From Candidatus Daviesbacteria bacterium (lineage in GTDB: Bacteria > Patescibacteriota > Microgenomatia > Daviesbacterales > UBA10151), in contig JACOXI010000003.1 of NCBI GenBank assembly GCA_016176335.1, positions 386,477 to 450,476 of the forward strand: a stretch of 64,000 bases of DNA, read 5' to 3'. Both the position numbers and the translations under genes were made by a program. Positions 1-59,015 of this stretch are shown here, piece after piece. Within the stretch, counting starts at the first letter, position 1. Each line of letters begins with the position of its first letter. The notes below the pieces were generated by a model. That model saw only the letters and a list, made by a program, of their open reading frames with translations, did no database searches and was not told the origin of the DNA.

Positions 1-2
1 AA

Positions 3-899
3 TACGATACCGTATTTAACTTTTTTGATCACTTCCCAACCGTCAGACAACTGGTTACCCCTTACTGGGGGTATGGAGGATCTGTTCCTGGTCCAGGAGA
101 TGGGATGTCTTTCTTTTTAGGCGGGGCCAATTTATTAGTTTTTGTAACTGCGGGATTACTGCTTATTTTTAAATGGAAAGTAATCAACCGGCAAAACAAA
201 TTATTGATGATTTGGGTAATTAGTGCACTTGCTACTGCCATTTTTTTGATGAATTATCGCTCAACTTTTGTTTGGAATAATCTACCACTTCTTCCATATT
301 TTCAATTTCCCTGGAGATTTTTGATACTGGTAACCTTTTTTATACCTTTGCTGGTGGTAATTTTTGAAAAATTTAAATACGAGAAAGCACTTTTATTACT
401 TATTATGGCTTTCATTATTTTTCCAACATGGACCTTTTTTAGACCTGAAGATTTTTTAGGTCGAGAGGATGGTTACTATCTTAATCGCTATATACCCATT
501 CCTTCTGCAAGCAGCGAATATTTAAAAACCCAAGAAGAATATTTGAGATTGCCTAAAGCAACTGAAATTAGACCGGATAAAAATTTCCCATTACTTTTTC
601 CCGAGAACGGAATAAGAAGAGTGGATAAAATCAATGATTTAAAAGTAGCTTTTGAATTTGTTTCGGATAAAGGGGAGTTAATTAATTTAAACAAGTATTA
701 TTTCCCTGGTTGGCAAGCAAGAATTGATGGAAAATCAGTAGAAATTTTTGCAGGTAAGCCTTTTGGGCAAGTGAGTATATTCGTGCCTGCGGGATCTCAC
801 AAAGCAGAAGTTTATTTCCAAGAAACAAGTTTTAGAAAATTCTTAAACTTTGCTTCCTTGGGTGCATTTTTAGTATCATTGATGATGTTGTTAATATGA
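3..899 (+). CDS. 5'-truncated polytopic membrane protein with a YfhO-like C-terminal module (FPGWQARIDGK...GSHKAEVYF) and a C-terminal TM anchor
   Basis: The frame is open from the window start (codon phase from nt 3), so the gene begins upstream. Hydrophobic helices are followed by an ~110-aa soluble domain carrying the Y-x-P-G-W-x-A-x-V/I-D-G-K motif I associate with YfhO-family C-termini, then a terminal TM helix. It ends in an ATGA overlap with the next gene. Confidence 0.55.
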   Translation, partial: YDTVFNFFDHFPTVRQLVTPYWGYGGSVPGPGDGMSFFLGGANLLVFVTAGLLLIFKWKVINRQNKLLMIWVISALATAIFLMNYRSTFVWNNLPLLPYFQFPWRFLILVTFFIPLLVVIFEKFKYEKALLLLIMAFIIFPTWTFFRPEDFLGREDGYYLNRYIPIPSASSEYLKTQEEYLRLPKATEIRPDKNFPLLFPENGIRRVDKINDLKVAFEFVSDKGELINLNKYYFPGWQARIDGKSVEIFAGKPFGQVSIFVPAGSHKAEVYFQETSFRKFLNFASLGAFLVSLMMLLI

Positions 900-2161: not shown

Positions 2162-3319
2162 ATGCTTAAAAACAAATTCATCTTGTTAGGTCTCATTTTG
2201 ACGATTTTATTGATTTGTTTTCTTTTTATTGTACCCTTTACAAATCAAGAGAAGTATTTAATCAGGCTTTCTGAAATAGATAGATGTTTTAAAGACGGTC
2301 AAATTCCCTGTAGATGGGTTTTGGGTTTAGAAGATTTTTACGGATCTCCCATATTTAATTACCATGCTCCGCTGCCTTATTATTTTGGGGAACTTATTTT
2401 TTTTATCACCAACAACCTGACAATTACCCTCAAAATAATATTCGCGGTTAGTCTAATAGGAAGCTATATATTCATGTATCTTTTTGCATACAAATTTCTA
2501 GGGAAATTCAGAGCCAATTCATCTGCGATTTTTTATACTGTGCTAGCTTTTTCAGCTATTATCTTATCCAATGAAGGATTAGGGTTAGCTTGGGGTCTGA
2601 TGTTTTTTCCTTTAATTCTTTTAAACTTAAACTTACTTTCACAAAAAATGAAAATTCAGAATTTTCTGTTTTCTTCTATATTTTTATCACTGCTAACACT
2701 CTCCGCAGATACAGCGCCTATTTTTCTTGGCTTAATTTTCCTGTGGGTAGGCTATCAATATATTCGGAAAAAAAGTTTCACTTTTCTTTTCTTGAGTCTA
2801 TCATCAATAATATTTGCATTTTTACTGTCCTCTTTTTATATTTTTCCCTCTGTTTTGGAAAGGAATTTAGTGCATAGCGTATCTATGAATGATCCGCTGC
2901 GTTTTTTGCCAAAATCAGTAGCAGAAAAACCGCAGATTGTGATAGATGCCAAGTACCAAATATTAACAGGGGATTCGGATGTTTCCAATTTTAAACAAGG
3001 TACTAATTGGTTGAGATTTGAAACAAATACAAGAACGCATACCATTATTCGTTTATCCCAAGTTTATTTTCCACATTGGAAAATATTTATTGACGGAAAA
3101 GAAGCACAAGTTGAATATAAAAACAACAGCTTAGGATTGATGACTATTATTTTAGGAGAAGGTAGCCACATTGTAGAAGGGAGATTGTTAGATACTCCGA
3201 TACGTGCAGTCTCCAATATTGTAACAGTAGTCTCGGTCATTGTTACTTTACTTTTATGGATAATTCAGTTTAAGAAGGTCCGTAACTCACTAAACTATTA
3301 TAAAAAAAGAGTAAACTAA
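2162..3319 (+). CDS. YfhO-like membrane protein (about 7 TM, then a C-terminal beta-rich domain with YFPHWKIFIDGKEAQVEY, then a TM anchor)
   Basis: The C-terminal motif is paralogous to the ORF ending at 899 and to the C-termini of ORFs 36764 and 48634. Confidence 0.55.
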   Translation: MLKNKFILLGLILTILLICFLFIVPFTNQEKYLIRLSEIDRCFKDGQIPCRWVLGLEDFYGSPIFNYHAPLPYYFGELIFFITNNLTITLKIIFAVSLIGSYIFMYLFAYKFLGKFRANSSAIFYTVLAFSAIILSNEGLGLAWGLMFFPLILLNLNLLSQKMKIQNFLFSSIFLSLLTLSADTAPIFLGLIFLWVGYQYIRKKSFTFLFLSLSSIIFAFLLSSFYIFPSVLERNLVHSVSMNDPLRFLPKSVAEKPQIVIDAKYQILTGDSDVSNFKQGTNWLRFETNTRTHTIIRLSQVYFPHWKIFIDGKEAQVEYKNNSLGLMTIILGEGSHIVEGRLLDTPIRAVSNIVTVVSVIVTLLLWIIQFKKVRNSLNYYKKRVN

Positions 3320-3329
3320 ATATAAAAAA

Positions 3330-4811
3330 ATGGCTGAAAGCGTTGAGCAGTTAGATCCAACTCAAGAGTTAACTACAGATGTTGTAAAAAAAAGGGCAGT
3401 TAGGGGAGCTGCCATTTTAACAGGCAGAAATATTTTGATTCAGGCTATTTCTTTTTTCTCCACAGCTCTTTTAACGGTATTTTTACTGCCTTCGGAGTTT
3501 GGAGTATTTTTTCTCGTCTCGGCAGTTATTAATTTTATGGCATATTTTGGAGATATTGGTTTTGCAGCTGCTTTAATTCAAAAAAAAGATCAGCTGACAG
3601 AAGAAGATCTCAAAACCGTATTTACCGCCCAGCAGGTATTAGTGGTAGTAATTTTAATCGCAGTCTTCATTATGACCCCTTTACTTCAAAATATTTATAA
3701 CTTGGATTATAAAGCTATATTGTTACTTTGGGCTTTAGGTTTTTCTCTCCTGATGTCTTCACTTAAAACAATTCCTACAGTCTTAATGGAGCGAAGACTG
3801 GAGTTTAACAAATATGTTGTGCCACAGATTGCAGAAACAATTATTTTTAATATAACTGCGGTTTTACTTGCATGGATGGGTTTTGGAGTGACAAGCTATA
3901 CAGTTGCCGTAATTTTAAGAAGTTTTTCAGGACTGATTATTACATATTTCATACAGCCTTGGATTCCATCCTTTTCTTTTTCAAAGCAGGCTTTTAAATC
4001 AGTACTAAAATTTGGAGTCCCATATCAGGCAAACACTTTGCTTGCTATGGTGAAAGATGATGGAATGATTTTATTTTTGGGAAGTATTTTAGGGCCTTCT
4101 GGAGTAGGGCTGTTGGGTTGGGCACAAAAGTGGGCATATGCACCTTTAAGATTTTTTATGGATCAGGTGATTAAAGTCACATTTCCCGCTTTCTCCAGAC
4201 TTCAAGATCAAAAACAAGAACTATCAAATGCGGTTTCAAAATCTATCTTCTTTGTTAGTATTCTGGTTTTCCCATCCCTTGTTATGTTAAATCTCTTGGC
4301 ACCAACCTTGGTTGAAATTATTCCAAAATATACTAAATGGAACCCTGCTTTAACCGCGTTACTGTTTATTAGCGTTACTTCCGCTTTGGCGTCCATTACA
4401 ACACCGCTGACAAATACTTTAAATGCCATAGGAAAAATTTCCATAACTTTTAGATTGATGATAATGTGGACAGTGACTACTTGGATTTTTGTTCCGTTTC
4501 TTACCATAAAATACGGATTAAACGGGGCGGCTACGGGTTTCACAATCGTTGGTTTGACATCTGTTGTTGCACTTTTCGTTATTTCCAAATATGTAAGTAT
4601 TAATTACATTCAAAGTGTGGGAAAACCTGTTCTTGCAACAATTACCATGGGACTTTTGGTATTTTTTGTCCGCTCCATTATCGGAACCTCGCTTACTCAA
4701 GTTATTTTAATGGTTGCAGTAGGTCTTATTTCGTATACACTATCTTTATTTGTTTTAGAACCTAATATACTAGCTAGTTTTAAAAAACTATTCATTAAGA
4801 AAGCAGAATGA
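3330..4811 (+). CDS. Wzx-type oligosaccharide flippase / polysaccharide biosynthesis protein (MOP superfamily)
   Basis: 493 aa with about 12-14 TM. The N-terminal region (ILTGRNILIQAISFFSTALLTVFLLPSEFGVFFLVSAVINF...AAALIQKK) is typical of Wzx/PST-family flippases. Confidence 0.7.
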   Translation: MAESVEQLDPTQELTTDVVKKRAVRGAAILTGRNILIQAISFFSTALLTVFLLPSEFGVFFLVSAVINFMAYFGDIGFAAALIQKKDQLTEEDLKTVFTAQQVLVVVILIAVFIMTPLLQNIYNLDYKAILLLWALGFSLLMSSLKTIPTVLMERRLEFNKYVVPQIAETIIFNITAVLLAWMGFGVTSYTVAVILRSFSGLIITYFIQPWIPSFSFSKQAFKSVLKFGVPYQANTLLAMVKDDGMILFLGSILGPSGVGLLGWAQKWAYAPLRFFMDQVIKVTFPAFSRLQDQKQELSNAVSKSIFFVSILVFPSLVMLNLLAPTLVEIIPKYTKWNPALTALLFISVTSALASITTPLTNTLNAIGKISITFRLMIMWTVTTWIFVPFLTIKYGLNGAATGFTIVGLTSVVALFVISKYVSINYIQSVGKPVLATITMGLLVFFVRSIIGTSLTQVILMVAVGLISYTLSLFVLEPNILASFKKLFIKKAE

Positions 4812-7800
4812 TTAAATTAGCAGTTACAATCTTATCTTTACTTTTTTTAGCCATAAACCCATTTGCAGTATTGGCAAACACTAACTCGTTCGTTTCAGTT
4901 GTAAATCCCATAAGAGGATCGGATTTTTGGGAAGATAAAGCACAAAATCCAAAAACAGCGGTCACGGGCCAAATGGACATTTTGGATAAATTTAATATTC
5001 CTGCAACTTGGCTGATAAGATATGACGCTTTATTCGAAACCGAGATTATAAACAAGTTGAAAGATGCGGCAGATGACGAGAAAGGGATATTTTTGGAAAT
5101 TACCCCGACTTTTACAAAAGATGCTGATGTTGGCTATCACAAGTCGGAAAACTGGCATGATGCCGGCAGTTCTTTTCTTTCCGGTTATGAAAGGGATGAA
5201 AGGATCAAACTTATTGATAAGGCATTTGCAAAGTTCAAAGACACATTCGGAATCTATCCGAAATCGGTGGGCGCCTGGTGGATTGACGCTTTTTCCCTTT
5301 CGTACATGCAGGAAAAATACGGAGTAGTTTCGGCCCTCATCGTTGCCGATCAGTATACAACCGATAATTATCAAATCTGGGGACAATTTTGGTCAACTCC
5401 TTATTACCCGTCCAAAAATAATATTTTGCATCCTGCTCAAACTGCCGCAAACAGATTGCCTGTTGTGATGACCCAATGGGCTGCTCGAGATCCGGTCAAC
5501 GCTTATGGAAGGGGAGTAGAAGAGAGTACTTTCAGCATTCAGGCGAATGATTATACTGACTACCACAATTTGAACACAAGCTACTTCTCATCGATGGTGG
5601 ATATTTATACCAAGCAGCAGTTTAACCAATTTGGGCATTTAACAGTGGGATTGGAAAATTCATATCCTTGGAAAAAGTATGCGAATGAATATAAAAACCA
5701 GATGAAAGTTTTGAGAGAAAAAAGTAACCAAGGACAGTTCTCCTTAGTGACAATGGAAAGCTTTGCCAATAGGTATAAAAATACATTTCCCGATCTTTCT
5801 CCCACTCAAATAATTGTTGCCGATGATTCCTTGGGTGGTTTCAAAAAAGCGGTTTGGTTTATGAATCCGTATTATCGGGTCGGCTGGTTTTACAACCAGG
5901 AAGGAAGTGTAATACGCGATATCCGCCAATACATTGACGGCGAAGAAGAACTTTGTTTTGTCCGAAGATGCGATGAAGTTAATTTTGGAACTTTTGCCAC
6001 CAGAGTTTTGGATGAGGTGACTTACGGGAATAATTGGATAATAGATGGCGGGAAAATTTCTGATTTTAATGTTTTGAAAAAAGGCGATAATTTTGTCATA
6101 ACATACTTAAATGAAGTAGGAAACTTACGAACTATAAAGTTTTTGCCTCGGGATATTAGTGTTGATGAAAAAATTTCATCAATTGATGGTGCAATTTTGG
6201 ATGCAATCAAACAGGATACGGTAGAACAAAAAAAGCAGAGTGAATTTAAGGAAGGCGGCTTTTATTGGGGTCCTATTAGCGTATTATCAAAGATAATTAA
6301 ATTCTCATTTTTCCTACTGATAGTATATTTGGTGCCAGGATTGGTTTTGACGGATAAATTATTTAACAAAGATAGTCCTTCGGTTTATTTAAAACGGGTA
6401 TTTCTAGCGCTGATCACAGGTTTTGTTTTACTGACTGGTGCATTCTATATTTTTAGCCTGTTAAATCTAAGATTCCTGATTTTCGTTTATATCTTATTAT
6501 TCTCATTTGTGTTTTTAAAGCTAAAACTTTTTTACCTACTTAAGATTAGGATACCTAAACCTGCTGACAAACTTACTTTGGCAACTGTTGTGCTGGTTAT
6601 TGCAGGAGTAATTTTCCAAAATATACCCAGCTTTAAAAATGGTTTGGTTTTTCCGTTCGGAATGGGATTTTGGGGTCCGAATACACATGATGGAATCTGG
6701 CACATAAGTTTGATAAACCAACTGATTAAGGGGTTGCCTGCCGGGAATCCTATCTTTGCAGATACAATACTTAAAAATTACCATTTTTTCTATGATTTAT
6801 TAATCGCAGCTACAGCATACCTTACTAAGATACCTATTTTAGATTTGGTTTTCAGATTCTATCCAATCTTGTTCTCATTATCTTTGGGAGTAGGTACTTA
6901 TTTTTTAGCAACTACTCTTTCGAAAAGCAGAATTGCAGTAATTCTTAGCCTTTACTTTGTTTATTTTGCAGGAAGTTTTGGCTGGATTGTGGAATATATA
7001 AAACAAAAAAGTTTTGGCGGAGAATCTGCATTTTGGGCTAATCAATCAATCTCGTTTAACTTAAATCCGCCTTTTGCGGTATCTTTGCTAATTATCATTG
7101 CTTTGCTTCTCCTTCTACATGGCAAGGAATCAAAAAGTTTAAAGGGAATCTTGGTAGCATCACTTCTGGCAGGTAGTTTAGTTGGATTTAAAGCGTATGG
7201 GGCAGTTTTAATTTTGGGTGCGTTACTCTCTATAGCAATTGTAAATATACTGAAGAAGGATTTATCATATCTTTTAATTTTTTTCTTTTCATCAATTCTC
7301 ACATCCTTAATATTTTTCTTAAATTTCCAACCCAGCCAGCAACTGATAATTTTTTCTCCATTTTGGTTTATTCATTCCATGATTGATTCGCCCGATAGGA
7401 TTGGGTGGGTCAGGTTATCTATTGCGAGAACTGTGGGTTTTGAAACAAGAAACTGGTTTAAGTTGATATCCGCGGAAGTCATAAGCCTGACCTTATTCAT
7501 TGTGGGAAATTTAGGAATGAGGATTTTAAGCATTGGATCTTTAATAAAAATCAAAAGTATAATTAAAGATCATAATCTTTTGTTTATTTTAGTATTTTCG
7601 ATATTATCAATATTTATTCCCATACTTTTTATACAATCCGGAAATCCCTGGAATACGATTCAATTTTTTTACTACGGTCTTTACGTAACCGCAGTAGTAA
7701 GCGGCATTGTTTTATCTTCTTTGATTTTTAATTTGCCTAGGGCACTATCTTTTTTAATAATAGTTTTCGTATTAATATTGACGCCGATTAACTCAATTAC

Positions 7801-8233
7801 CACCGCAAGCTATTACACTAATTACTTACCACATGGCAGAATTGATGGGAAAGAATTAGAGGCCTTAACATATTTATCTTTGCAAAAAGATGGTACGGTA
7901 CTCACATACCCCTACGACAAAAAACTAAAGGTTAAAATATCAGAACCCTGGCCTCTATTTGCCTATGATAGCACGGCATATGTATCCGCCTTATCAAACA
8001 AGGCCACTTTTCTGGAAGATGAGCCGCAAAATCAAATTCTTTTGACAGATTATAAAAAAAGATTAGTTGCTTCAAAAGATTTCTTTTTGAAACCGCAAGC
8101 AAACTTCATGAAAGAGAATAATATCCAATATATTTATTTACCTAAAAAATTTAATATGAGAATGAGTGAAAATCTATTATCTGTTGAAAATATTTTTGAA
8201 AATGAAGAAGTAATTATCTACAAAGTAAAATAA
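4808..8233 (+). CDS. Giant (1141 aa) membrane protein with three regions: signal peptide plus an ~450-aa extracytoplasmic carbohydrate-active-like domain, a >12-TM GT-C-like core with an HDGIWH motif, and an ~200-aa C-terminal soluble domain
   Basis: Signal peptide MIKLAVTILSLLFLAINPFAVLA. The soluble N-domain carries motifs (ATWLIRYDAL, HKSENWHD, WSTPYYP) loosely reminiscent of a deacetylase/hydrolase fold. The TM core is paralogous to ORF 8241 (FWGPNTHDGIWHISL vs FWSSQGHDGLWHVAS). There is an ATGA overlap with the flippase. Confidence 0.55.
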   Translation: MIKLAVTILSLLFLAINPFAVLANTNSFVSVVNPIRGSDFWEDKAQNPKTAVTGQMDILDKFNIPATWLIRYDALFETEIINKLKDAADDEKGIFLEITPTFTKDADVGYHKSENWHDAGSSFLSGYERDERIKLIDKAFAKFKDTFGIYPKSVGAWWIDAFSLSYMQEKYGVVSALIVADQYTTDNYQIWGQFWSTPYYPSKNNILHPAQTAANRLPVVMTQWAARDPVNAYGRGVEESTFSIQANDYTDYHNLNTSYFSSMVDIYTKQQFNQFGHLTVGLENSYPWKKYANEYKNQMKVLREKSNQGQFSLVTMESFANRYKNTFPDLSPTQIIVADDSLGGFKKAVWFMNPYYRVGWFYNQEGSVIRDIRQYIDGEEELCFVRRCDEVNFGTFATRVLDEVTYGNNWIIDGGKISDFNVLKKGDNFVITYLNEVGNLRTIKFLPRDISVDEKISSIDGAILDAIKQDTVEQKKQSEFKEGGFYWGPISVLSKIIKFSFFLLIVYLVPGLVLTDKLFNKDSPSVYLKRVFLALITGFVLLTGAFYIFSLLNLRFLIFVYILLFSFVFLKLKLFYLLKIRIPKPADKLTLATVVLVIAGVIFQNIPSFKNGLVFPFGMGFWGPNTHDGIWHISLINQLIKGLPAGNPIFADTILKNYHFFYDLLIAATAYLTKIPILDLVFRFYPILFSLSLGVGTYFLATTLSKSRIAVILSLYFVYFAGSFGWIVEYIKQKSFGGESAFWANQSISFNLNPPFAVSLLIIIALLLLLHGKESKSLKGILVASLLAGSLVGFKAYGAVLILGALLSIAIVNILKKDLSYLLIFFFSSILTSLIFFLNFQPSQQLIIFSPFWFIHSMIDSPDRIGWVRLSIARTVGFETRNWFKLISAEVISLTLFIVGNLGMRILSIGSLIKIKSIIKDHNLLFILVFSILSIFIPILFIQSGNPWNTIQFFYYGLYVTAVVSGIVLSSLIFNLPRALSFLIIVFVLILTPINSITTASYYTNYLPHGRIDGKELEALTYLSLQKDGTVLTYPYDKKLKVKISEPWPLFAYDSTAYVSALSNKATFLEDEPQNQILLTDYKKRLVASKDFFLKPQANFMKENNIQYIYLPKKFNMRMSENLLSVENIFENEEVIIYKVK

Positions 8234-8240
8234 TACTAAT

Positions 8241-10259
8241 ATGTATCAACTATTTCAAACAACAGTATTTTTTCTATTATTTATTGTTCTTTCAATTGTA
8301 GTTTTCTATATACCGGGATTCGCAGTAGTAGCCAGAATTAGAAAACAATTAGAAGATCAAGAGATTATTACATTATCTTTGGCATTGGGAATTGTTATTT
8401 TCGTTTTATCTGCCATTATTTTAGCTTTGCTAAATACTAGATACCTTTTATTACCTTTAATAATATTTCTAAATTTGTTTATTATTTCAAAAAATAAATT
8501 AGCTGCATTTTCCCCATGGAAAATATTTATTAAAAATAAAATACTTCTAATATTGATAGTATTGGGAATTCTAACTCAAGGATTTATTAATTTTCCCAGC
8601 GGTTATTTATATAAAGATGGTCTTCAATTTTGGAGTTCACAAGGTCATGATGGTCTCTGGCATGTAGCCTCAATGGAAGTAATTAAAAAGTCTATTCCTC
8701 CCCAAAACCCTGTTTTTTCAGGCGAACCACTTTATAACTATCATTATTTAGTTGATGGTTTAATGGGGGAATTTGCAAGAATTTTTCCTTTTTTCTCAAC
8801 ATTGGATTTATATTTTAGATTTTTCCCGGTAATTTTTTCACTCCTTATAGGGATAAGCGTTTTTGCATTTGTCAGAAGATGGCAAGAAAATCTTAAAATT
8901 GGGTATCTTGCTTTATTCTTTACTTATTTTGTTGGAAGTTTTGGCTATGTGGTAACTTTTATAAGAAGTGGAAATATTTTTGGAGGCGAGACTATTTTTT
9001 GGGCAGCACAACAGAATACTCTTTTGGGTAATCCCCCTCATGCGATTTCTCATGGTTTGCTGGCAGCCTTTTTCTTAAGCTTTTTATTTTATCTAAAGGA
9101 AAGAAAAACGATTTGGGTTGTAGTATCTTTTTTAATTGGTTCAACTTTAGCTGGTTTTAAAGTTTCAGGAGGATTTGTGATGTTAATGGGACTTGGAGCT
9201 GCTGCTTTAATTGATTTTATAAACAAGCGAAAATTCTTGAGTTTGCTGTTGCCTTTTCTGTTGGGAATGTCTAATTTTCTAACTTTTAAATGGATGACAT
9301 CTAATGGGAGTTCATTTTTAATGTTTTTACCTTGGTGGTTTGTTAGAACGATGATTGTAGATAAACTTGGCTGGATGGATTTAGAGTTAAGACGCCAGCA
9401 CTACCTTTCAAAGGGTACATGGAATGCATATCTTCGGGTTTTACAACTTGAGTTAATTGCACTTGCGATCTTTATTTTAGGTAATTTAGGCATGAGATTT
9501 TTAGGAATAATTGAGGTAATCAGAAAATTTATCTTAAGACAGGGGACATTTTTAAAAGATCCTATTGAAGTCATGCTTATTGTAACCATGTTAACAGGAC
9601 TTATTATGCCGATGTTATTTGTTCAAAAAGGACTCATCTATAATAATATTCAGTTCATGCAATATTTTCTTTTTATATTCGGTTTTTACGGGGCAATATC
9701 AACGTATAAAGTTCTGAACTATTTTAAGAATAAAGTAATTAAACTGATAGTCATTGGATTGATAATCGTTTTTTCCATACCCACAGTAATAGGTAACTTA
9801 GTTGAGTTGTATGGTCCAGGCAGGGCCCCCTTGGCCAAAATAACTAATTCCGATCTTGAAGCGCTTCAATACTTAAAGCAAAACTCCAAGAAAGATGCGG
9901 TCATATTAACCGTGCCTTATAATCCATTTTTAAGGGATAAATTTACAAACCAACCATGGCCAATCTATGCTTGGTATGATACCCCTTATGTTTCTGCTAT
10001 TACTGGTAGGTTTTCTTATCTTGCTTCTGAACATGTCAGGCTTTTATTTTATCCATCAACAGAAGAAAGAATAAAAAATAAGATTAAGTTTTTTGAGCAA
10101 TCAGATTTTTCTTGGAATAGGCAATTTCTAAAAAATGAAAGAATAAGCTATATTTATGCGGCACAAGATGAACTGATCAAACCCCTTGATATACAAAAAA
10201 ACAATTTGGAAATATTTTTTGAAAATAATGAGATAATTATATTCAAAGTGAAATCCTAA
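8241..10259 (+). CDS. Polytopic membrane protein, paralog of the core and C-terminal regions of ORF 4808 (putative GT-C glycosyltransferase, HDGLWH motif)
   Basis: 672 aa. It shares the loop motif and the C-terminal domain with ORF 4808 (…LEALQYLKQ…EIIIFKVKS vs …LEALTYLSLQ…EEVIIYKVK). Confidence 0.55.
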   Translation: MYQLFQTTVFFLLFIVLSIVVFYIPGFAVVARIRKQLEDQEIITLSLALGIVIFVLSAIILALLNTRYLLLPLIIFLNLFIISKNKLAAFSPWKIFIKNKILLILIVLGILTQGFINFPSGYLYKDGLQFWSSQGHDGLWHVASMEVIKKSIPPQNPVFSGEPLYNYHYLVDGLMGEFARIFPFFSTLDLYFRFFPVIFSLLIGISVFAFVRRWQENLKIGYLALFFTYFVGSFGYVVTFIRSGNIFGGETIFWAAQQNTLLGNPPHAISHGLLAAFFLSFLFYLKERKTIWVVVSFLIGSTLAGFKVSGGFVMLMGLGAAALIDFINKRKFLSLLLPFLLGMSNFLTFKWMTSNGSSFLMFLPWWFVRTMIVDKLGWMDLELRRQHYLSKGTWNAYLRVLQLELIALAIFILGNLGMRFLGIIEVIRKFILRQGTFLKDPIEVMLIVTMLTGLIMPMLFVQKGLIYNNIQFMQYFLFIFGFYGAISTYKVLNYFKNKVIKLIVIGLIIVFSIPTVIGNLVELYGPGRAPLAKITNSDLEALQYLKQNSKKDAVILTVPYNPFLRDKFTNQPWPIYAWYDTPYVSAITGRFSYLASEHVRLLFYPSTEERIKNKIKFFEQSDFSWNRQFLKNERISYIYAAQDELIKPLDIQKNNLEIFFENNEIIIFKVKS

Positions 10260-10260: not shown

Positions 10261-11940
10261 ATGACAAAGAAAACATTTTTGTTGGTTTTAATATTAGCCT
10301 TGGCTACAATTTTGAGAATTTGGAAGCTGGATTCAGTTCCAGTGTCACTGTTTGGTGATGAGCTCGATGTTGGTTACCATGCTTATTCAATTTTAAAAAC
10401 CGGCAAAGATTACACAGGCAATACAGCATTATTTTATGTTAACTCGATTGCAGACAAGAAAGCCCCCCTTTATTCATATTTAGCAGTTCCTACTGTAGGA
10501 ATTTTTGGAATATCTCCTTTAGGTGTTCGTTTACCAGCTAGCCTATTTGGAATTTTGGGAGTATTACTTATTTTTTATGTTGTTAAGCTCATAACTTCTG
10601 AAAATATTGGTTTGATCTCTGCTGTACTGTTGGCTGTTTCTCCCTGGCATATTCAATTTTCTCGTTGGGGATTGGAACACACCTTAATGTTAGGATTATT
10701 TTTAGCAGGTATTTATTTTTTCTTTAAAAGTTTATCAAAAAATAAATGGTTGTTGGTATCTAGTGTCTGTTTTGCACTCACACCTTATGCTTATCATGCA
10801 GCAAAAATTTTTCTCCCCTTAATTTTAGTTGTTATGCTGATGATATTTTGGCGAGAGCTTAAAAAAGTCTCAAAAAGTTATTTCATAGTTTCCACATTAT
10901 TGATATTGATAATTGCTGGACCAGTAATCATAAGTAGCATTTTTGGAAATACCGCAGAACGTTTTAATTCTTTATCTATCTTGAGCGACTCTAAGAATGT
11001 TGGGGAGATAGGTTTTGATAGAGTCAAAGATATTCAGATGGAATCGCCTTTTGGTAGGCTATTTCATAATAAAATCACACTGCTTTTGGGAAAAATTGGA
11101 GAGAATTATTTTCGTTCTTTTTCAACAGAATTTCTATTCATCAGAGGAGATATTAATTTAAGACATTCAATTCTACAAAACGGTGAATTTTATAAGTATC
11201 AACTTTTCTTTTTAATTTTGGGATTAATATTTTTTACAGCTAAAATACCGAATCAAAAATACAAACTTTTTATAATATCTTGGTTACTTTTGTCCCCTTT
11301 TCCTGCTATGGTTACAACAGAGGGTGGTAATCATGCTGCAAGATTGTTCTTTATGCTACCAGTGCTGATAATCATTATCGCTACAGGAATATACTATAGT
11401 TATTTTACTTTAAGTAAAAAATTCCAAAGAATGTACATATTGGGTATGGCTTTATTGATTTTGTTAAGCTTTTTGTTTTACCAACATAATTATTGGATAC
11501 ACTATCCTTGGGATTCAGAGAGATGGTGGCAGGCAGGGTTTAAAGAGGCGATTCAATCAGTGGTTTCAGAAAGCAAAAATTATGATAAAGTGATTATCAG
11601 CCAAGCTGACGAACCGGCTCTGATTTCTTTCCTTGGTTACTCTGAATATCCTCCAGATCAATTTCAACAGAAGTACCCTTTAACTTCAGAAGATGTACCA
11701 AGTTTTGGCTCAATATCAAAACTGGATAAATATCATTTTCCTTCCATTGGAAAGGGAACCGATCTTTATAGCTTAGGATCTGTTTTACCTCCTAAAACTT
11801 TATACCTTGCTACAATAAAAGAGATAAATTTAAATCTTATACGTGAGCCGGAGCGTGTCCCAAAAGATCTTAAACTGATTAAATCAATCACTTATCCTTC
11901 AGGTGACCCTGCTTTTTATCTTTTCCAGAAAGCAATATAA
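10261..11940 (+). CDS. ArnT/PMT_2-family (GT39/GT83-like) GT-C glycosyltransferase
   Basis: The first extracytoplasmic loop has FGDELDVGYHAYSI (acidic DE/EL motif) and a ...KKAPLYSYL... (KPPL-like) motif. It has more than 10 TM and a C-terminal soluble domain shared with ORFs 17577, 19212 and 20813. Confidence 0.7.
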   Translation: MTKKTFLLVLILALATILRIWKLDSVPVSLFGDELDVGYHAYSILKTGKDYTGNTALFYVNSIADKKAPLYSYLAVPTVGIFGISPLGVRLPASLFGILGVLLIFYVVKLITSENIGLISAVLLAVSPWHIQFSRWGLEHTLMLGLFLAGIYFFFKSLSKNKWLLVSSVCFALTPYAYHAAKIFLPLILVVMLMIFWRELKKVSKSYFIVSTLLILIIAGPVIISSIFGNTAERFNSLSILSDSKNVGEIGFDRVKDIQMESPFGRLFHNKITLLLGKIGENYFRSFSTEFLFIRGDINLRHSILQNGEFYKYQLFFLILGLIFFTAKIPNQKYKLFIISWLLLSPFPAMVTTEGGNHAARLFFMLPVLIIIIATGIYYSYFTLSKKFQRMYILGMALLILLSFLFYQHNYWIHYPWDSERWWQAGFKEAIQSVVSESKNYDKVIISQADEPALISFLGYSEYPPDQFQQKYPLTSEDVPSFGSISKLDKYHFPSIGKGTDLYSLGSVLPPKTLYLATIKEINLNLIREPERVPKDLKLIKSITYPSGDPAFYLFQKAI

Positions 11941-11954
11941 TTAACATTAGTATT

Positions 11955-12860
11955 ATGAGCAAAGACATTTCAGTCATAATCAATACCTTAAATGAAGAGA
12001 AAAACATTGCAAGAGCAATTGAGTCTGTTAAATGGGCGGATGAAGTAGTGGTATGTGATATGCACTCCGAAGATAAAACTGTTGAGATTGCTAAAAAATT
12101 AGGCGCAAAAGTAATTTCCCATAAAAGGTTAGATTATGTAGAACCTGCCAGAAATTTTGCCATATCAAAGGCTTCTAATGAATGGATACTGATTGCTGAT
12201 CCTGATGAGGAGATTCCAGATCAGTTAGCCAAGAGATTAAAAGAGATTGCAAATAAAATGGAGCAGATAGATTATGTCAGAATACCCAGAAAAAATATTA
12301 TTTTTGGTAAATGGATGAAAGGAGCAATGTGGTGGCCTGACTTAAATGTAAGATTTTTTAGGCAAGATAAGGTTAAATGGACCGACAAAATCCATCGACC
12401 GCCAGAACTGTTAGGACAAGGATTAGACTTACCAGCAGAGGAAAAATGGGCGATTATTCATCATAATTATCAGACTATTGGTCAATTTATAGAGAGGATG
12501 AACCGTTATACCACAATTGAAGCAGAGGAATTAAAAAAGCAGGGATACGAATTTAACTGGCAAGACCTTTTTGATAAACCGTTAAATGAGTTTCTTTCAA
12601 GATTTTTTGCAAACCGAGGTTTTGAAGACGGATTACATGGATTGGCTTTAAGTTTATTACAGGGTTTTTCTTTTTTAATAATCTATCTTAAAGTGTGGGA
12701 AAATTCTTCATTCAAGGAAGCTGCGCTTAATCTGGCTGATTTGGAAGCAGACAAATCAAAGATGGGTTATCAAATAAATTACTGGATGAAGGAGATTAAA
12801 TCATCTAAAAATCCTTTTAAAAGATTTTTCTCGAAGTTTAAAGTTTATTTTTTTGAATAA
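11955..12860 (+). CDS. GT2-family glycosyltransferase
   Basis: The N-terminus ISVIINTLNEEKNIARAIESVKWADEVVVCDMHSEDKT is a GT-A fold with an acidic motif. It is a tandem paralog of the next gene. Confidence 0.75.
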   Translation: MSKDISVIINTLNEEKNIARAIESVKWADEVVVCDMHSEDKTVEIAKKLGAKVISHKRLDYVEPARNFAISKASNEWILIADPDEEIPDQLAKRLKEIANKMEQIDYVRIPRKNIIFGKWMKGAMWWPDLNVRFFRQDKVKWTDKIHRPPELLGQGLDLPAEEKWAIIHHNYQTIGQFIERMNRYTTIEAEELKKQGYEFNWQDLFDKPLNEFLSRFFANRGFEDGLHGLALSLLQGFSFLIIYLKVWENSSFKEAALNLADLEADKSKMGYQINYWMKEIKSSKNPFKRFFSKFKVYFFE

Positions 12861-12866
12861 AGAATT

Positions 12867-13670
12867 ATGTTAAGCGTTGTTGTACTTACGAAAAATGAAG
12901 AGGATAGAATAAAGGTTTGTCTTGAGTCTGTTAAATGGGCTGATGAGATTGTTGTAGTGGATAATGGATCGAAAGATAGCACCTTAGAAATAGCAAAAAG
13001 ATATACAGATAAAATTTTTAGTGTGAATCTGCAAGATTTTGCCGCATGGCGAAATTTTGCTGCAGAAAAAGTATTAGGGGATTGGATGTTATTTGTAGAC
13101 CCGGATGAGAGAGTACTTGAACCTTTAAAAAAAGAAATAGAAGGTATGATAAGCGTTTCGGATTTTTCCGCATATGCTCTTTCCCGAAAGAATATAATAT
13201 TTGGAACCGAGGTGAAGTATGGTCCATTCTGGCCTGATTGGGTAATCAGGCTTTTAAAAAAGGATGATTTTGAAACTTGGGTGGGGAAAATTCATGAATA
13301 CCCTAAATTTAAAGGCCAACTAGGATATAGCAAAAACTCTCTGTTACATCTGACTCATCAGGATCTTGATCGAATAGTTTTAAAAAGTTTGGCATGGAGC
13401 AAGATTGATGCCAAATTGAGGTTTGATGTTAACCACCCAAAAATGAGTGGCATCAGATTTTTAAGGATTTTTATCACAGAGTTTTTTCACCAAGGAATTA
13501 CAAGAGGCGGTTTTTTTGGCGGCACTGTTGGGGTAATGGATTCTATACTACAAGTTTTTAGCTTGTTCATGACCTATGTCAGGCTTTGGCAAATGCAACA
13601 AAGGAAACCACTAAGAGAAATTTATAGTGATATTGATAAAAAATTAATCGAAGATAACTTCAAATATTAG
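12867..13670 (+). CDS. GT2-family glycosyltransferase
   Basis: LSVVVLTKNEEDRIKVCLESVKWADEIVVVDNGSKDSTLEIAKRY, plus a DPDE motif. Confidence 0.75.
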   Translation: MLSVVVLTKNEEDRIKVCLESVKWADEIVVVDNGSKDSTLEIAKRYTDKIFSVNLQDFAAWRNFAAEKVLGDWMLFVDPDERVLEPLKKEIEGMISVSDFSAYALSRKNIIFGTEVKYGPFWPDWVIRLLKKDDFETWVGKIHEYPKFKGQLGYSKNSLLHLTHQDLDRIVLKSLAWSKIDAKLRFDVNHPKMSGIRFLRIFITEFFHQGITRGGFFGGTVGVMDSILQVFSLFMTYVRLWQMQQRKPLREIYSDIDKKLIEDNFKY

Positions 13671-14761
13671 TGAAACTTATGAAAATTGCTATTTATTCCC
13701 CGTATTTGGATACCTTTGGCGGCGGAGAGAAATATATGATGAGTATTGGCGAAATACTTTCCCAAAATAATTTTGAGGTAGATATACTTTTGGATAAGAA
13801 TTTGGAGAATAAGGATTGCAAGTATTTAAAAAATGAATTATCAAAAAGATTTAATTTGAATCTTGAGAGAGTATCTTTTATCAGAGCTCCAATAGGAGAG
13901 GGATCTAATTTTTTTTCGAGATTCTTTTTTTTAAAAAAATATACGGTATTTTTCTATTTGTCAGATGGTAGTATCTTTTATCCAACTGCCAGAAAGAACA
14001 TTTTACATATCCAATCTCCCATTATTGGACAACCTGCAAAAAGTTTATGGGGGAAAATAAAACTAAAGGGGTGGAATTTAATTATTTATAATTCGCAGTT
14101 TACCCAAAAATATTCTCAAAACAATTGGCCGCTGACGTCTCAAGTGATCTATCCCCCGGTTGATACTGAAAAAATTAAATTACTCGGGAAGAAAAATTAT
14201 ATTTTATCGGTAGGTAGATTTTTTGGTTACTTAAAAGACAAAAAACACGCAATTATGATCAAAGCATTTAAAGATCTGTATAAAGGTAAAAAAGTAGATG
14301 GTTGGAGTTTGTATTTGGTTGGAGTGGCATCAAAAGGAGATGAGCCTTATCTCATGCAATTACGCAATTTATCCAAAGGGTTTCCTATCAACTTTTATCC
14401 GAATTTAGCATATAACGCACTCATGACACTTTATGGACAGTCAAGTATTTACTGGCATGCTGCAGGTTTTGGAGAGGAAGATCCGACCAAGATGGAACAT
14501 TTTGGAATATCAACAGTTGAGGCAATGGCAGCAGGCTCTGTGCCAGTGGTTGTAAATGGTGGAGGACAAACAGAAATTGTAGAAGACGGAAAGAGCGGTT
14601 TTTTGTGGAATTCTCTAAAAGATTTGCAAAGATTTACAACTTCGTTAATTAAAGACCAAAATTTAAGGTCTAAATTATCACAAAATGCGGTTTTGGCTTC
14701 TCATAAATTTTCCAAAAAAAGATTTGAGAAAGAAATTTTAAAGGTAGTTGATTATTTATGA
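13670..14761 (+). CDS. GT4-family glycosyltransferase
   Basis: The C-terminal half has EHFGISTVEAMAAGSVPVVVNGGGQTEIVEDGKSGFL (EX7E-type retaining GT-B motif). The track start is a GTG at 13670; an alternative ATG lies at 13679. Confidence 0.75.
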   Translation: MKLMKIAIYSPYLDTFGGGEKYMMSIGEILSQNNFEVDILLDKNLENKDCKYLKNELSKRFNLNLERVSFIRAPIGEGSNFFSRFFFLKKYTVFFYLSDGSIFYPTARKNILHIQSPIIGQPAKSLWGKIKLKGWNLIIYNSQFTQKYSQNNWPLTSQVIYPPVDTEKIKLLGKKNYILSVGRFFGYLKDKKHAIMIKAFKDLYKGKKVDGWSLYLVGVASKGDEPYLMQLRNLSKGFPINFYPNLAYNALMTLYGQSSIYWHAAGFGEEDPTKMEHFGISTVEAMAAGSVPVVVNGGGQTEIVEDGKSGFLWNSLKDLQRFTTSLIKDQNLRSKLSQNAVLASHKFSKKRFEKEILKVVDYL

Positions 14762-17573: not shown

Positions 17574-17576
17574 ATT

Positions 17577-19193: not shown

Positions 19194-19211
19194 CTACGTT
19201 ATAATTAAAGT

Positions 19212-41862: not shown

Positions 41863-42416
41863 TTTTGAATAAGAAATGCTATATGGGAGAAAGGGTACCA
41901 AAAGGGTTTCCTCATTACTTTTACTTCTAATTTTACATGAAGCTTTTTAAAAAGACTCTTCCATTCTGACAAATCCCTGAAAGATAAAGGTGTGCTTAGA
42001 TCTCCATAATGAAATTTATTAAGGGTAGCATCACTAATTTTTGCCACAAGACTCGGTTTCATTTCAAATATTAGTACTTTTTTGGCAACTCTTAAAGCAT
42101 CCTTTATAAGATTTTCTTGATTTTCTTTTGGAATATGATGGAGTACATCGTTTAATAAGGCCGTATCAAATTTACGTTTAAACTTTGGTAATTTGTCACT
42201 GGCCATTTTTTTAAAAGGAATATCATTATAAATCAAGTAATTTTTTATATCACACGCTTGTAGTTGTAATGAATAATGATGCCTTAATAGTTTTGTAATA
42301 GTTCCCCTACCGCAACCAATATCTAACACTCTTTCATTTTCTTTGAGCCATTTATCATAGGCTGTGGTCATCAGACGGAAGCGATAGGATGATGTTTTTT
42401 GGAAGATATTCATCAC
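41859..42416 (-). CDS. Class I SAM-dependent methyltransferase
   Basis: VLDIGCGRGTITKLL (motif I) and LLNDVLHHI. Confidence 0.7.
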   Translation of the reverse strand: MMNIFQKTSSYRFRLMTTAYDKWLKENERVLDIGCGRGTITKLLRHHYSLQLQACDIKNYLIYNDIPFKKMASDKLPKFKRKFDTALLNDVLHHIPKENQENLIKDALRVAKKVLIFEMKPSLVAKISDATLNKFHYGDLSTPLSFRDLSEWKSLFKKLHVKLEVKVMRKPFWYPFSHIAFLIQK

Positions 42417-54007: not shown

Positions 54008-54011
54008 ATTT

Positions 54012-57840: not shown

Positions 57841-57870
57841 GCAAAGTTTGAATTTTAATGGATTAAAATT

Positions 57871-58911: not shown

Positions 58912-59015
58912 TTGGATTTGACAAAGATTAGAAAGGAATTCAATAAACGTCATTTTGTTCCGTTAGAGGAAGGATTAAGAACTACGATTACTTGGCAAAA
59001 AAAATTATATGTCTA
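58912..59015 (+). pseudogene. Probable remnant of the C-terminus of an SDR sugar epimerase/dehydratase (LDLTKIRKEFNKRHFVPLEEGLRTTITWQKKLYV*)
   Basis: Translating this 215-bp gap gives a terminal ~33 aa matching the D.(S/T)K....LG(W/F).P...LEEGL..T..W tail of extended SDR epimerases. There is no matching start or N-terminal domain upstream. Confidence 0.3.

What the first reader, a model, noticed from the sequence alone, without database searches (positions are those of the whole stretch)
4808..10259. Two paralogous 'HDGxWH' membrane proteins of an unassigned GT-C-like family, one carrying a ~450-aa secreted N-terminal carbohydrate-active-like domain
ORFs 4808 (1141 aa) and 8241 (672 aa) share a TM core with a conserved loop (FWGPNTHDGIWHISL / FWSSQGHDGLWHVAS, NP(I/V)F, NYH(F/Y)) and a C-terminal soluble domain. 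I cannot place them in PMT_2, YfhO or STT3. ORF 4808 additionally has a signal peptide and a large periplasmic domain with HxxxxH and RYD motifs, like a deacetylase/hydrolase fold. A fusion of a polymer-modifying domain to a transferase would couple de-N-acetylation or trimming with glycosyl transfer. This is a candidate novel family.
Basis: partly seen in the sequence, partly recalled or inferred. Interest (0 to 1): 0.55.

Follow-up and report, generated by a model that had tools for sequence, protein, structure and literature searches.

The report
Uncurated CPR membrane glycosyltransferase pair
Two neighbouring genes of a Candidatus Daviesbacteria genome encode members of a large, uncurated family of GT-C-fold membrane sugar transferases that nearly always sits just after a lipid-sugar flippase gene; one copy carries an exported domain from a hydrolase/deacetylase fold family of unknown function, so this is a new family and a new domain fusion within a known enzyme class, with the exact reaction still unknown.

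Summary
ORF 4808-8233 (1141 aa) and ORF 8241-10259 (672 aa) are paralogs (30% identity, E=7e-76). Neither hits Pfam, NCBIfam or PDB sequences.

AlphaFold models are confident (pLDDT 91 and 93). The shared core is a GT-C fold: the top 20 Foldseek hits are STT3/PglB/AglB, DPY19, AftA/AftD and ArnT.

The N-terminal domain of ORF 4808 is a seven-stranded beta/alpha barrel plus beta-sandwich. It is closest to PDB 3lm3 (DUF3863) and more distantly to CE4, GH57 and GH38. It has no invariant histidine, so CE4-type metal-dependent de-N-acetylation is unlikely.

The family has about 1740 clusters at 50% identity, mostly in Microgenomates-group CPR. In 76 genomes a Wzx flippase lies directly upstream of 55 of 68 long-type genes, usually with overlapping stop and start. 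GT2-GT2-GT4 genes usually follow. The fusion recurs in 35 genomes and 28 of those keep the tandem.

Both paralogs keep all family-invariant residues, which face outside the cell.

Best reading: an outward-facing, lipid-linked-donor glycosyltransferase acting after Wzx, with an accessory glycan-binding or trimming domain. The exact reaction (en-bloc transfer, polymerisation or decoration) is unresolved. Verdict: new family and fusion variant of a known kind.

The parts
3330..4811 (+). Wzx/MOP-family flippase (493 aa), conserved upstream partner; its TGA stop overlaps the ATG of ORF 4808 (ATGA)
   Evidence: Pfam Polysacc_synt_3 E=3e-54. NCBIfam MOP flippase hits are below cut-off. Overlap read. 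Directly upstream of 55/68 E-type genes in other genomes.
4808..8233 (+). Long paralog ('E-type', 1141 aa): signal peptide + DUF3863-like exported domain + 14-TM GT-C core + C-terminal soluble domain
4808..4879 (+). Signal peptide or signal anchor (aa 1-24, MIKLAVTILSLLFLAINPFAVLAN)
   Evidence: Hydrophobic peak at residues 4-22. Equivalent N-termini in P0121, P0123 and P0129. Cleavage was not tested.
4880..5797 (+). Seven-stranded beta/alpha barrel of the glycoside hydrolase/deacetylase superfamily, DUF3863-like (aa 25-330). Invariant residues: R36, E91, E97, Y110, W116, R132, D160, D181, Q182, D186, W191, W224, R227, Q245, D248, E283
   Evidence: AF2 pLDDT 93.2. Foldseek top hit 3lm3, E=1.9e-15. 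Profile vs 3lm3 E=1.2e-6. Invariant columns.
5798..6181 (+). Beta-sandwich subdomain of the exported domain (aa 331-458), also aligned to 3lm3
6269..7813 (+). Membrane core of the long paralog (aa 488-1002): three add-on helices plus an 11-helix GT-C core
6686..6703 (+). HDGIWH motif (aa 627-632) in the first outside loop of the GT-C core; D628 is the candidate catalytic base
   Evidence: D is 100%, W 98% and H 99% conserved in 128 sequences.
7814..8230 (+). C-terminal extracytoplasmic alpha/beta domain of the long paralog (aa 1003-1141)
   Evidence: Aligned to the C-terminal domain of ORF 8241.
8241..10259 (+). Short paralog ('F-type', 672 aa): 14 TM helices plus C-terminal domain, no exported N-domain; starts 7 nt after ORF 4808
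8646..8663 (+). HDGLWH motif (aa 136-141) of the short paralog; D137 is the candidate catalytic base
9813..10256 (+). C-terminal extracytoplasmic alpha/beta domain of the short paralog (aa 525-672)
   Evidence: AF2 secondary structure. Foldseek match to the AglB C-terminal globular domain 3vu0: TM(target) 0.51-0.53, probability 0.99-1.0, but E=0.2.
2162..3319 (+). Conserved cassette partner 'C': polytopic membrane protein, weak PF10131 (PTPS_related) hit
10261..11940 (+). PMT_2-type GT-C 'G', frequent downstream partner of the short paralog
   Evidence: Pfam PMT_2 E=5.8e-13. 38/61 F-type genes are followed by a PMT_2-type gene.
11955..14761 (+). Conserved cytoplasmic glycosyltransferase trio: H (GT2, 11955-12860), I (GT2, 12867-13670), J (GT4, 13670-14761)
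   Evidence: H and I lie downstream of 46/68 E-type genes.

Best explanation
The two genes are paralogous members of an uncurated GT-C-fold (GT-C_A-like) integral-membrane glycosyltransferase family. In the genomes sampled it is found mainly in Microgenomates-group CPR bacteria; the window is Candidatus Daviesbacteria. The minimal enzyme is 11 TM helices plus a C-terminal extracytoplasmic domain. The window proteins carry three extra N-terminal helices. Shown: fold, paralogy, family size, domain architecture, conserved residues and gene neighbourhood. Inferred mechanism: cytoplasmic GT2/GT2/GT4 enzymes build a glycan on a polyprenyl-phosphate carrier. [quoted passage not shown] The GT-C then uses it as donor and transfers sugar to an extracytoplasmic acceptor. 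The invariant Asp of the DGxWH loop (D628 / D137) would act as catalytic base. The other invariant outward-facing residues (H, NYH, D, GGE, K307/K795, R, Q, N) would hold the phosphate, any metal and the sugar. My preferred sub-model, at about 40%, is en-bloc transfer (an oligosaccharyltransferase- or ligase-like step), because the nearest structures are STT3/AglB/PglB and DPY19. The exported N-domain of the long paralog is an accessory carbohydrate-binding or carbohydrate-cleaving module of the DUF3863 lineage. It would act on the same acceptor or product. It is not a CE4-type metal deacetylase. Both paralogs look catalytically competent and probably differ in donor or acceptor specificity. 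The confidence given (0.6) is for the general statement: a GT-C glycosyltransferase acting after Wzx with an accessory glycan-active domain. GT-C fold membership alone is about 0.85-0.9.
For: Paralogy. GT-C fold: AF2 pLDDT 90.9, pTM 0.92; the top 20 Foldseek PDB hits are all GT-C enzymes with probability 1.00 and E from 1.7e-8. Minimal core: many family members of 520-600 aa start at profile position ~95-104, which is TM4 of ORF 8241. This places the DGxWH loop right after the first core helix, where GT-C enzymes carry their small extracytoplasmic domain (general description in PMC11127046). Conservation: D137, W140, H141, N166, Y167, H168, D172, E250, W254, Q257, N264, K307, W366, N415, R419, Q462, N468 and Q471 are at least 97% conserved across 128 sequences of four subtypes, and both window proteins keep them all. 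Topology: K/R-rich short loops are cytoplasmic and all conserved loops face outside, on the same side as the exported N-domain. Wzx coupling: Wzx is directly upstream of 55/68 E-type genes, with gaps mostly -4, -8 or -1 nt; the window has the ATGA overlap. Cassette C-Wzx-E-(F)-(PMT_2)-GT2-GT2-GT4 across 76 loci. H and I match GmaR/SunS-type GT2 rather than GtrB/DPMS-type polyprenyl-phosphate sugar synthases. N-domain: pLDDT 93.2; 3lm3 is the top structural hit (E=1.9e-15, TM 0.61/0.67) and a profile hit (E=1.2e-6). Its invariant acidic and aromatic residues lie at the C-terminal ends of all seven barrel strands. Fusion: conserved in 35 genomes, with two different linker types of 3 TM or 1 TM, and found on independent assemblies. 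A standalone N-domain gene lies inside the cassette in L051 and L042.
Against: There is no biochemical data for any member. Foldseek TM-scores are only 0.42-0.49, and I could not superpose coordinates, so equating D137/E250/K307/R385 with the catalytic residues of PglB or ArnT is inference. There is no sequence-level link to any curated GT-C family: Pfam and NCBIfam are empty and hhalign against the window's PMT_2 paralogs gives 2.7% probability. The OST signature WWDYG is absent. No priming phosphoglycosyltransferase was found in the window. Donor type and acceptor are unknown. The closest relative of the N-domain (3lm3/DUF3863) is itself uncharacterised, so catalysis versus binding is undecided. 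F-type genes occur without E-type genes in 10 loci, and E-type genes occur without F or the N-domain in many Woesebacteria. The tandem and the fusion are therefore not obligatory.
Confidence: 0.6

Rival explanations
1. Wzy-like polymerase. The GT-C joins Wzx-flipped lipid-PP-linked repeat units into a polymer. The exported hydrolase-like domain sets chain length or releases the product.
For: Tight Wzx adjacency. No Wzy_C, EpsG, Wzz or other polymerase model hits anywhere in the window. The cassette has two conserved polytopic membrane proteins (C and E), as a polymerase plus ligase pair would require. The CAZy polymerase clan GT-C3 is described as having an N-proximal long loop with conserved Asp, His and two Arg (PMC10920833), which superficially resembles this family.
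Against: All structural neighbours are GT-C_A transferases. No SEDS, WaaL or WzyE structure is among the top 50 hits. In my recollection (not tested here) characterised Wzy polymerases are about 350-450 aa and lack the C-terminal globular domain present here. No sequence relation to polymerase Pfam models was found. I could not test GT122-124 HMMs directly.
Confidence: 0.2
2. Three-component decoration system. One GT2 makes a polyprenyl-phosphate monosaccharide, the MOP-family flippase exports it, and the GT-C adds single sugars to an existing surface polymer, as in Gtr, ArnT or GT136 systems. The N-domain would then act like the carbohydrate-binding modules of EmbC, AftD or GT136.
For: GT-C enzymes with extra extracytoplasmic carbohydrate-binding domains, and a MATE/MOP flippase partner, are documented for GT136 (PMC11127046). 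AftA, AftD and ArnT are also significant structural hits. H has weak NCBIfam hits to AglJ and dolichyl-phosphate hexose transferase models, far below cut-off. The 11-TM core with a long loop between core TM7 and TM8 resembles ArnT or GT136 more than the 13-TM PglB.
Against: H and I hit GmaR and SunS but not GtrB- or DPMS-type synthases in the PDB at E<=1e-3. No transmembrane helix is apparent by eye in their sequences; this was not formally tested. In my understanding Wzx-type flippases usually move lipid-PP-oligosaccharides. The conserved GT4 and second GT2 have no obvious role in this model.
Confidence: 0.2
3. One reading: the N-domain is a CE4-like de-N-acetylase, and its action is coupled to glycosyl transfer by the fused GT-C.
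For: CE4 deacetylases (HP0310, PdaC, Bc1960, PgdA, ArnD) rank 2-19 among structural hits.
Against: There is no invariant His in 48 diverse homologs. The Asp-His-His metal triad and the catalytic His of CE4 are therefore not conserved. The invariant residues are Glu, Asp, Arg, Trp and Tyr. The top hit is DUF3863 (3lm3), not CE4.
Confidence: 0.06
4. Not an enzyme: a transporter or scaffold that only looks like GT-C, with the N-domain as an inert spacer.
For: There are no curated family hits and no biochemical data.
Against: Transporter folds score E>0.2 with probability <=0.12, against 1.00 for GT-C. About twenty polar residues are near-invariant and cluster in outward-facing loops. N-domain invariants sit on the active-site face of the barrel.
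Confidence: 0.04

Closest known systems
Oligosaccharyltransferases STT3 / AglB / PglB (CAZy GT66, GT-C_A)
   Same: Best structural matches (8age_A E=1.7e-8; AglB 7e9s; PglB 3rce). Polytopic core followed by a C-terminal extracytoplasmic globular domain that resembles the AglB C-terminal domain (3vu0, TM 0.52). Conserved acidic residues lie in the first and second outside loops. The gene cluster, with a Wzx-type flippase and cytoplasmic GT2/GT4 enzymes, resembles pgl/agl loci in my recollection; I did not check this against a reference cluster.
   Different: No PF02516 hit. No WWDYG motif; the equivalent region reads P-x-(Y/F)-x-(Y/W)-x-(S/T/D)-T-x-Y-(V/I)-S-A. The core has 11 helices (14 in the window proteins) rather than 13. 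The motif set is different (DGxWH, NYH, GGExxFW). Sequence identity is 11-14%.
ArnT / PMT_2 / GT136-type lipid-P-monosaccharide GT-C enzymes (GT83, GT39, GT136)
   Same: GT-C_A fold, with a catalytic Asp expected in the first outside loop and an 11-13 TM core. Some (EmbC, AftD, GT136 ORF12) carry accessory extracytoplasmic carbohydrate-binding domains and work with a dedicated flippase (PMC11127046).
   Different: ArnT is a weaker structural hit (E about 1e-3). hhalign against six PMT_2-type paralogs from the same window gives 2.7% probability. The accessory domain here is N-terminal and of the hydrolase/deacetylase barrel type, not a CBM.
DUF3863 (PF12979), PDB 3lm3, BDI_3119 of Parabacteroides distasonis, 'putative glycoside hydrolase/deacetylase'
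   Same: Top structural match over 423 columns, covering both barrel and beta-sandwich. Profile-level sequence match E=1.2e-6 with shared GY-P-S, Q..D, P-YPS and PA motifs. Weak PF12979 hits in 7 of 48 relatives and in the precomputed annotation of the window protein.
   Different: 16% identity. The window protein itself is below Pfam detection. DUF3863 is soluble, is represented structurally by a Parabacteroides protein, and has no known function. Here the domain is membrane-tethered and fused to a GT-C.
CE4 polysaccharide/peptidoglycan deacetylases and GH57/GH38 (same barrel superfamily)
   Same: The seven-stranded beta/alpha barrel fold (Foldseek probability 1.0).
   Different: The CE4 metal triad and catalytic His are not conserved. 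TM(query) is only 0.26-0.40. The GH57 and GH38 catalytic residues were not mapped.
Wzy-type polymerases of CAZy clan GT-C3 (GT122-124)
   Same: Act after Wzx. Described with an N-proximal long outside loop carrying conserved Asp, His and Arg (PMC10920833).
   Different: No C-terminal globular domain is known to me for those families (from memory, not checked). No sequence link was found with the tools available. A structural comparison was not possible.

Membership tests
GT-C superfamily (GT-C_A structural class) | Polytopic membrane fold shared by STT3, PglB, ArnT, PMT, Emb, Aft | tested here: met
   AF2 pLDDT 90.9. The top 20 Foldseek PDB hits are all GT-C, probability 1.00, E 1.7e-8 to 1.5e-3, TM 0.33-0.49.
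GT-C superfamily (GT-C_A structural class) | Small extracytoplasmic domain or loop after the first core TM helix, carrying an invariant acidic catalytic residue | tested here: met
   Minimal family members begin at TM4 of ORF 8241. The following 70-residue loop has two short helices and D137, which is 100% conserved in 128 sequences. The catalytic role itself is inferred.
GT-C superfamily (GT-C_A structural class) | Conserved residues on the extracytoplasmic face | tested here: met
   Positive-inside analysis plus the exported N-domain fix the orientation. No experimental topology.
GT-C superfamily (GT-C_A structural class) | Uses a polyprenyl-phosphate-linked sugar donor | not testable with these tools
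   Only contextual evidence: Wzx is directly upstream in 55/68 cases.
STT3/AglB/PglB oligosaccharyltransferase (GT66, PF02516) | Match to the STT3 sequence model | tested here: not met
   No hit at E<=1 in any of 48 members.
STT3/AglB/PglB oligosaccharyltransferase (GT66, PF02516) | WWDYG motif at the start of the C-terminal domain | tested here: not met
   The region reads PIYAWYDTPYVSA (ORF 8241) and PLFAYDSTAYVSA (ORF 4808). Only P572 and Y583 are family-invariant.
PMT_2 / ArnT-like (PF13231, GT83/GT39) | Match to the PMT_2 model or profile similarity to bona fide PMT_2 proteins | tested here: not met
   No Pfam hit. hhalign against six window PMT_2 paralogs gives probability 2.7%. UniRef's automated name 'RgtA/B/C/D-like' on some members suggests an older or borderline InterPro match.
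YfhO (PF09586) / PF10131 | Match to the model | tested here: not met
   No hit.
DUF3863 (PF12979) | Match to the Pfam model at gathering threshold | tested here: not met
   The window protein gives 0 hits at E<=0.1. 7 of 48 relatives hit, best E=1.8e-4. The precomputed annotation lists a 'weak' hit.
DUF3863 (PF12979) | Same fold and domain composition as 3lm3 (barrel plus beta-sandwich) | tested here: met
   Foldseek E=1.9e-15, TM 0.61/0.67 over 423 columns. Profile E=1.2e-6. Best described as a distant sister group.
CE4 / NodB polysaccharide deacetylase | Asp-His-His metal triad and catalytic Asp/His motifs | tested here: not met
   No invariant or >=90% conserved His among 48 homologs.
Wzy polymerases (Wzy_C, EpsG, CAZy GT122-135) | Match to the family models | tested here: inconclusive
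   No Pfam polymerase model hits, but the CAZy GT122-135 HMMs are not available here.

The most novel reading that the evidence does not exclude
The family is the missing post-Wzx enzyme of a Microgenomates-specific surface-glycan pathway: an oligosaccharyltransferase- or ligase-like GT-C that founds a new CAZy GT family. In Daviesbacteria-type genomes it is physically fused to an active glycosidase or transglycosidase of the DUF3863 lineage. One polypeptide would then both transfer a lipid-linked glycan and trim or remodel the acceptor or product on the cell surface. This would also give DUF3863 its first function.
Probability: 0.22. Interest if true: 0.7.

Novelty: new variant of a known kind. 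Interest (0 to 1): 0.5.

Why it matters
CPR/Patescibacteria make up a large part of bacterial diversity, yet little is known experimentally about how they build their cell surface. This window is a glycan-biosynthesis island of more than 60 kb. The family studied here is the only conserved membrane enzyme placed directly after the flippase in a cassette that recurs across Microgenomates. If characterised, it would add a GT-C family with its own motif set (DGxWH, NYH, GGExxFW, K, R, Q/N) to the CAZy classification. It would show how these reduced-genome bacteria attach or polymerise surface glycans. The conserved fusion would also give a first functional handle on DUF3863, a structure-known but function-unknown domain. 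It could be a useful enzyme for glyco-engineering. It is not a new kind of biology: the fold, the donor logic and the cassette logic are all known types.

Tried and rejected
1. Sequence searches of both proteins, and of 48-member profiles, against Pfam, NCBIfam and PDB sequences gave nothing for the core.

2. hhalign of the family profile against the six PMT_2-type GT-Cs in the same window gave probability 2.7%, so this is not a divergent PMT_2.

3. I tested whether the C-terminal part of standalone N-domain proteins (P0153) is the same module as the GT-C C-terminal domain. BLASTP was not significant, so I dropped the idea.

4. P0264 (1639 aa) looked like a Rosetta-stone fusion of Wzx + N-domain + GT-C. 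A search with its junction found no other protein spanning both halves; maximum coverage was about 52%. I treat it as a singleton, possibly an indel artefact at the ATGA overlap, and do not use it as evidence.

5. I looked for further copies of either module in the window and found none.

6. Literature searches for DUF3863, PF12979, 3LM3 and BDI_3119, and for GT-C or oligosaccharyltransferase combined with Patescibacteria, CPR or Microgenomates, returned nothing relevant.

7. I tried to type the partner GT2 enzymes to decide the donor class. Only generic, sub-threshold hits came back.

8. An obligate heterodimer of the two paralogs, as in EmbA/B or Pmt1/2, is not required. Each type occurs alone in many genomes. 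A facultative complex was not testable.

Full report
**Observation**

The window carries ORF 4808-8233 (1141 aa) and ORF 8241-10259 (672 aa) on the + strand. BLASTP aligns residues 504-1141 of the first with 19-671 of the second at 30% identity, E=7e-76. The paralogy is therefore real. The stop codon of the upstream Wzx gene overlaps the start of ORF 4808 (ATGA). Only 7 nt separate ORF 4808 from ORF 8241. Composition is uniform across the window at about 31-38% GC. ORF 8241 is 100% identical to a hypothetical protein of a Candidatus Daviesbacteria MAG. The exact 1141-aa protein is encoded on independent assemblies of two other sequencing runs, so the fusion is not an assembly artefact.

**Curated libraries**

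Pfam and NCBIfam give no hit for either protein or for the isolated N-domain. A Pfam scan of 48 family members at E<=1 gives only noise. Sequence and profile searches of the PDB find nothing for the core. A profile-profile comparison with the six PMT_2-type GT-C proteins of the same window is negative, at 2.7% probability. UniRef gives some short-type members the automated name 'Glycosyltransferase RgtA/B/C/D-like domain-containing protein', while NCBI calls the same proteins hypothetical.

**Structure of the core**

An AlphaFold2 model of ORF 8241 built on a 48-sequence alignment is confident (pLDDT 90.9, pTM 0.92). Its 20 best Foldseek matches in the PDB are all GT-C enzymes. They are yeast and human STT3, C-mannosyltransferase DPY19, AglB, PglB, AftA, AftD and ArnT, with probability 1.00, E=1.7e-8 to 1.5e-3 and TM 0.33-0.49. 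Transporters score at chance level. The C-terminal 150 residues form an alpha/beta domain that resembles the C-terminal globular domain of AglB (3vu0, TM 0.52; the E-value of 0.2 is weak).

**Topology**

The model has 14 helices. Short K/R-rich loops alternate with long conserved loops. The exported N-domain of ORF 4808 precedes helix 1. Together these features fix an N-out/C-out topology in which every conserved loop faces outside.

**Family size and architecture**

An exhaustive profile search of 1.84 billion cluster representatives finds 1740 clusters at E<=1e-3 and 883 at E<=1e-30. Three architectures recur:
- About 520-600 aa, starting at profile position ~95-104, which is helix 4 of ORF 8241.
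- About 650-690 aa, covering the full profile.
- Fusions of 985-1190 aa.

The minimal enzyme is therefore 11 helices plus the C-terminal domain, and the three N-terminal helices of the window proteins are an add-on. The DGxWH loop then lies directly after the first core helix. This is the position of the small extracytoplasmic domain typical of GT-C enzymes (PMC11127046).

**Conserved residues**

I aligned 128 sequences of four subtypes taken from 76 genomes. The following are at least 97% conserved: D137, W140, H141, N166, Y167, H168, D172, E250, F253, W254, Q257, N264, K307, W366, N415, R419, Q462, N468 and Q471 (ORF 8241 numbering). In ORF 4808 these are D628, W631, H632 and so on. Both window paralogs keep all of them. 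The leading H of 'HDG' is conserved in fewer than 93% of sequences.

**The N-terminal domain**

Residues 1-480 of ORF 4808 give a very confident model (pLDDT 93.2, pTM 0.91). It consists of a signal-like helix, a seven-stranded beta/alpha barrel, a beta-sandwich and a linker helix. The best structural match is 3lm3, the JCSG structure of DUF3863 annotated 'putative glycoside hydrolase/deacetylase' (E=1.9e-15, TM 0.61/0.67 over 423 columns). It is followed by CE4 deacetylases, PuuE, ArnD, GH57 and GH38. A profile of 48 homologs also finds 3lm3 by sequence (E=1.2e-6), with shared motifs in both barrel and sandwich. Some relatives have weak PF12979 hits.

The invariant residues are R36, E91, E97, Y110, W116, R132, D160, D181, Q182, D186, W191, W224, R227, Q245, D248, E283 and R357. 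They fall at or just after the C-terminal ends of all seven strands, which is the active-site face of such barrels. No His is invariant or even 90% conserved, so the CE4 metal site is absent. The domain is therefore a functional pocket, catalytic or binding, but not a CE4-type de-N-acetylase. I found no paper on DUF3863 or 3lm3 function.

**Conservation of the fusion and the tandem**

In 76 loci from species-representative genomes I found 68 long-type (E) genes, 35 of them fused to the N-domain at 985-1190 aa. I also found 61 short-type (F) genes. E is directly followed by F in 28 loci, with gaps of -4 to +3 nt in 23 of them (full range -20 to +16). Two linker types exist, three helices or one. 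In L051 and L042 the N-domain is a separate gene inside the cassette. Many Woesebacteria, Shapirobacteria and Amesbacteria have only the minimal E-type gene.

**Gene neighbourhood**

Wzx lies directly upstream and on the same strand for 55 of 68 E-type genes, and the commonest gaps are -4, -8 and -1 nt. Two GT2 genes follow in 46 of 68 loci, usually together with a GT4 gene. A PF10131-like membrane protein usually precedes Wzx. F-type genes are more often followed by a PMT_2-type GT-C (38 of 61), and they occur without E in 10 loci. In Daviesbacteria the two modules appear merged.

The window as a whole is one large glycan island. It holds at least 12 GT2 genes, 6 GT4 genes, at least 10 GT-C-like membrane proteins, two Wzx genes, methyltransferases and nucleotide-sugar enzymes. 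No priming phosphoglycosyltransferase, Wzz, LCP or Wzy_C model is detected. The partner GT2 enzymes are generic. Their nearest solved relatives are GmaR and SunS, not GtrB/DPMS-type polyprenyl-phosphate sugar synthases.

**Interpretation**

Shown: the GT-C fold, a large and coherent family with its own invariant outward-facing residues, a conserved fusion to a DUF3863-like barrel, and near-obligate coupling to a Wzx flippase and cytoplasmic glycosyltransferases.

Inferred: the enzyme uses the Wzx-flipped, polyprenyl-phosphate-linked glycan as donor at the outer face, with D137/D628 as catalytic base. I favour an en-bloc, OST- or ligase-like transfer at about 40%, because the nearest structures are OSTs and DPY19 and the architecture includes an AglB-like C-terminal domain. 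A Wzy-like polymerase and a three-component monosaccharide-decorating GT-C are each at about 20%. The N-domain most likely binds or cleaves the acceptor or product glycan.

The enzyme is not a member of GT66, because there is no STT3 model hit and no WWDYG motif. It is not a member of PMT_2 or of CE4 either.

**Novelty and score**

The fold and the pathway logic are known. The family, its motif set and the GT-C plus DUF3863-like fusion are not described in the curated libraries or in the literature I could search. I rate it a new variant of a known kind, with moderate interest (0.5). It has real value for CAZy classification and for CPR envelope biology, but no unexpected principle has been demonstrated.

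Noticed in passing
window 10261-22429: A run of six PMT_2/PMT-type GT-C paralogs (10261, 14758, 16134, 17577, 19212, 20813; 459-559 aa), interrupted only by GT2, GT2 and GT4 genes. This is an unusually dense array of lipid-linked-donor glycosyltransferases for a small CPR genome.
   Followed up: partly
window 36764-39316 (+) and 48634-52101 (+): Two large membrane proteins (850 and 1155 aa) with no Pfam hit. They are paralogs of each other (26% identity over about 535 aa, E=2e-35) and share an N-terminal 'II(G/A)GG..G' segment. They may be another unassigned membrane glycosyltransferase family.
   Followed up: partly
window 40327-41901 (-) and 44795-46738 (-): A second paralogous pair of membrane proteins with no Pfam hit (524 and 647 aa; 33% identity over about 210 aa, E=1e-26). 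ORF 44795 is weakly similar to the PMT_2-type ORF 10261 (E=8e-7).
   Followed up: partly
loci L001, L003-L007, L013, L025, L030 and others: Many loci with the same CPR-type cassette and 40-76% identity carry NCBI record titles such as 'uncultured Gammaproteobacteria', 'Bathyarchaeia archaeon', 'Clostridia bacterium' or 'Spirochaetia bacterium'. These look like placeholder or wrong taxonomic labels on MAGs.
   Followed up: no
P0264 (1639 aa): A single database protein joins a Wzx flippase, a signal-anchor-like helix, the N-domain and the GT-C core in one chain. The arrangement is topologically plausible. No second example was found, so it may be an indel artefact at the ATGA overlap.
   Followed up: yes
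P0195 (same genome, NCBI locus tag HYS96_04650), P0228, P0153: The DUF3863-like domain also occurs in 600-680 aa proteins with other C-terminal parts. One type has a multi-helix membrane tail, and one of these is in the same Daviesbacteria genome. Another has a single helix plus a soluble domain. These architectures outnumber the GT-C fusion among the top hits.
   Followed up: partly
window 1-899: ORF 105-899 is listed from an internal ATG and appears to be the C-terminal part of a gene cut by the window start. Its relatives in other loci are about 450-580 aa, and it is distantly related to ORF 2162-3319.
   Followed up: partly
window 56977-58794: A split transketolase (N-terminal and C-terminal halves as two adjacent genes) sits inside the glycan island, next to an epimerase/dehydratase gene at 59009-59947.
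   Followed up: no
window 52403-54007: A GT2 domain fused to a SAM-methyltransferase domain in one 534-aa protein. It is followed by a PIG-V/GT87-like membrane mannosyltransferase-type protein at 53970-55196.
   Followed up: no
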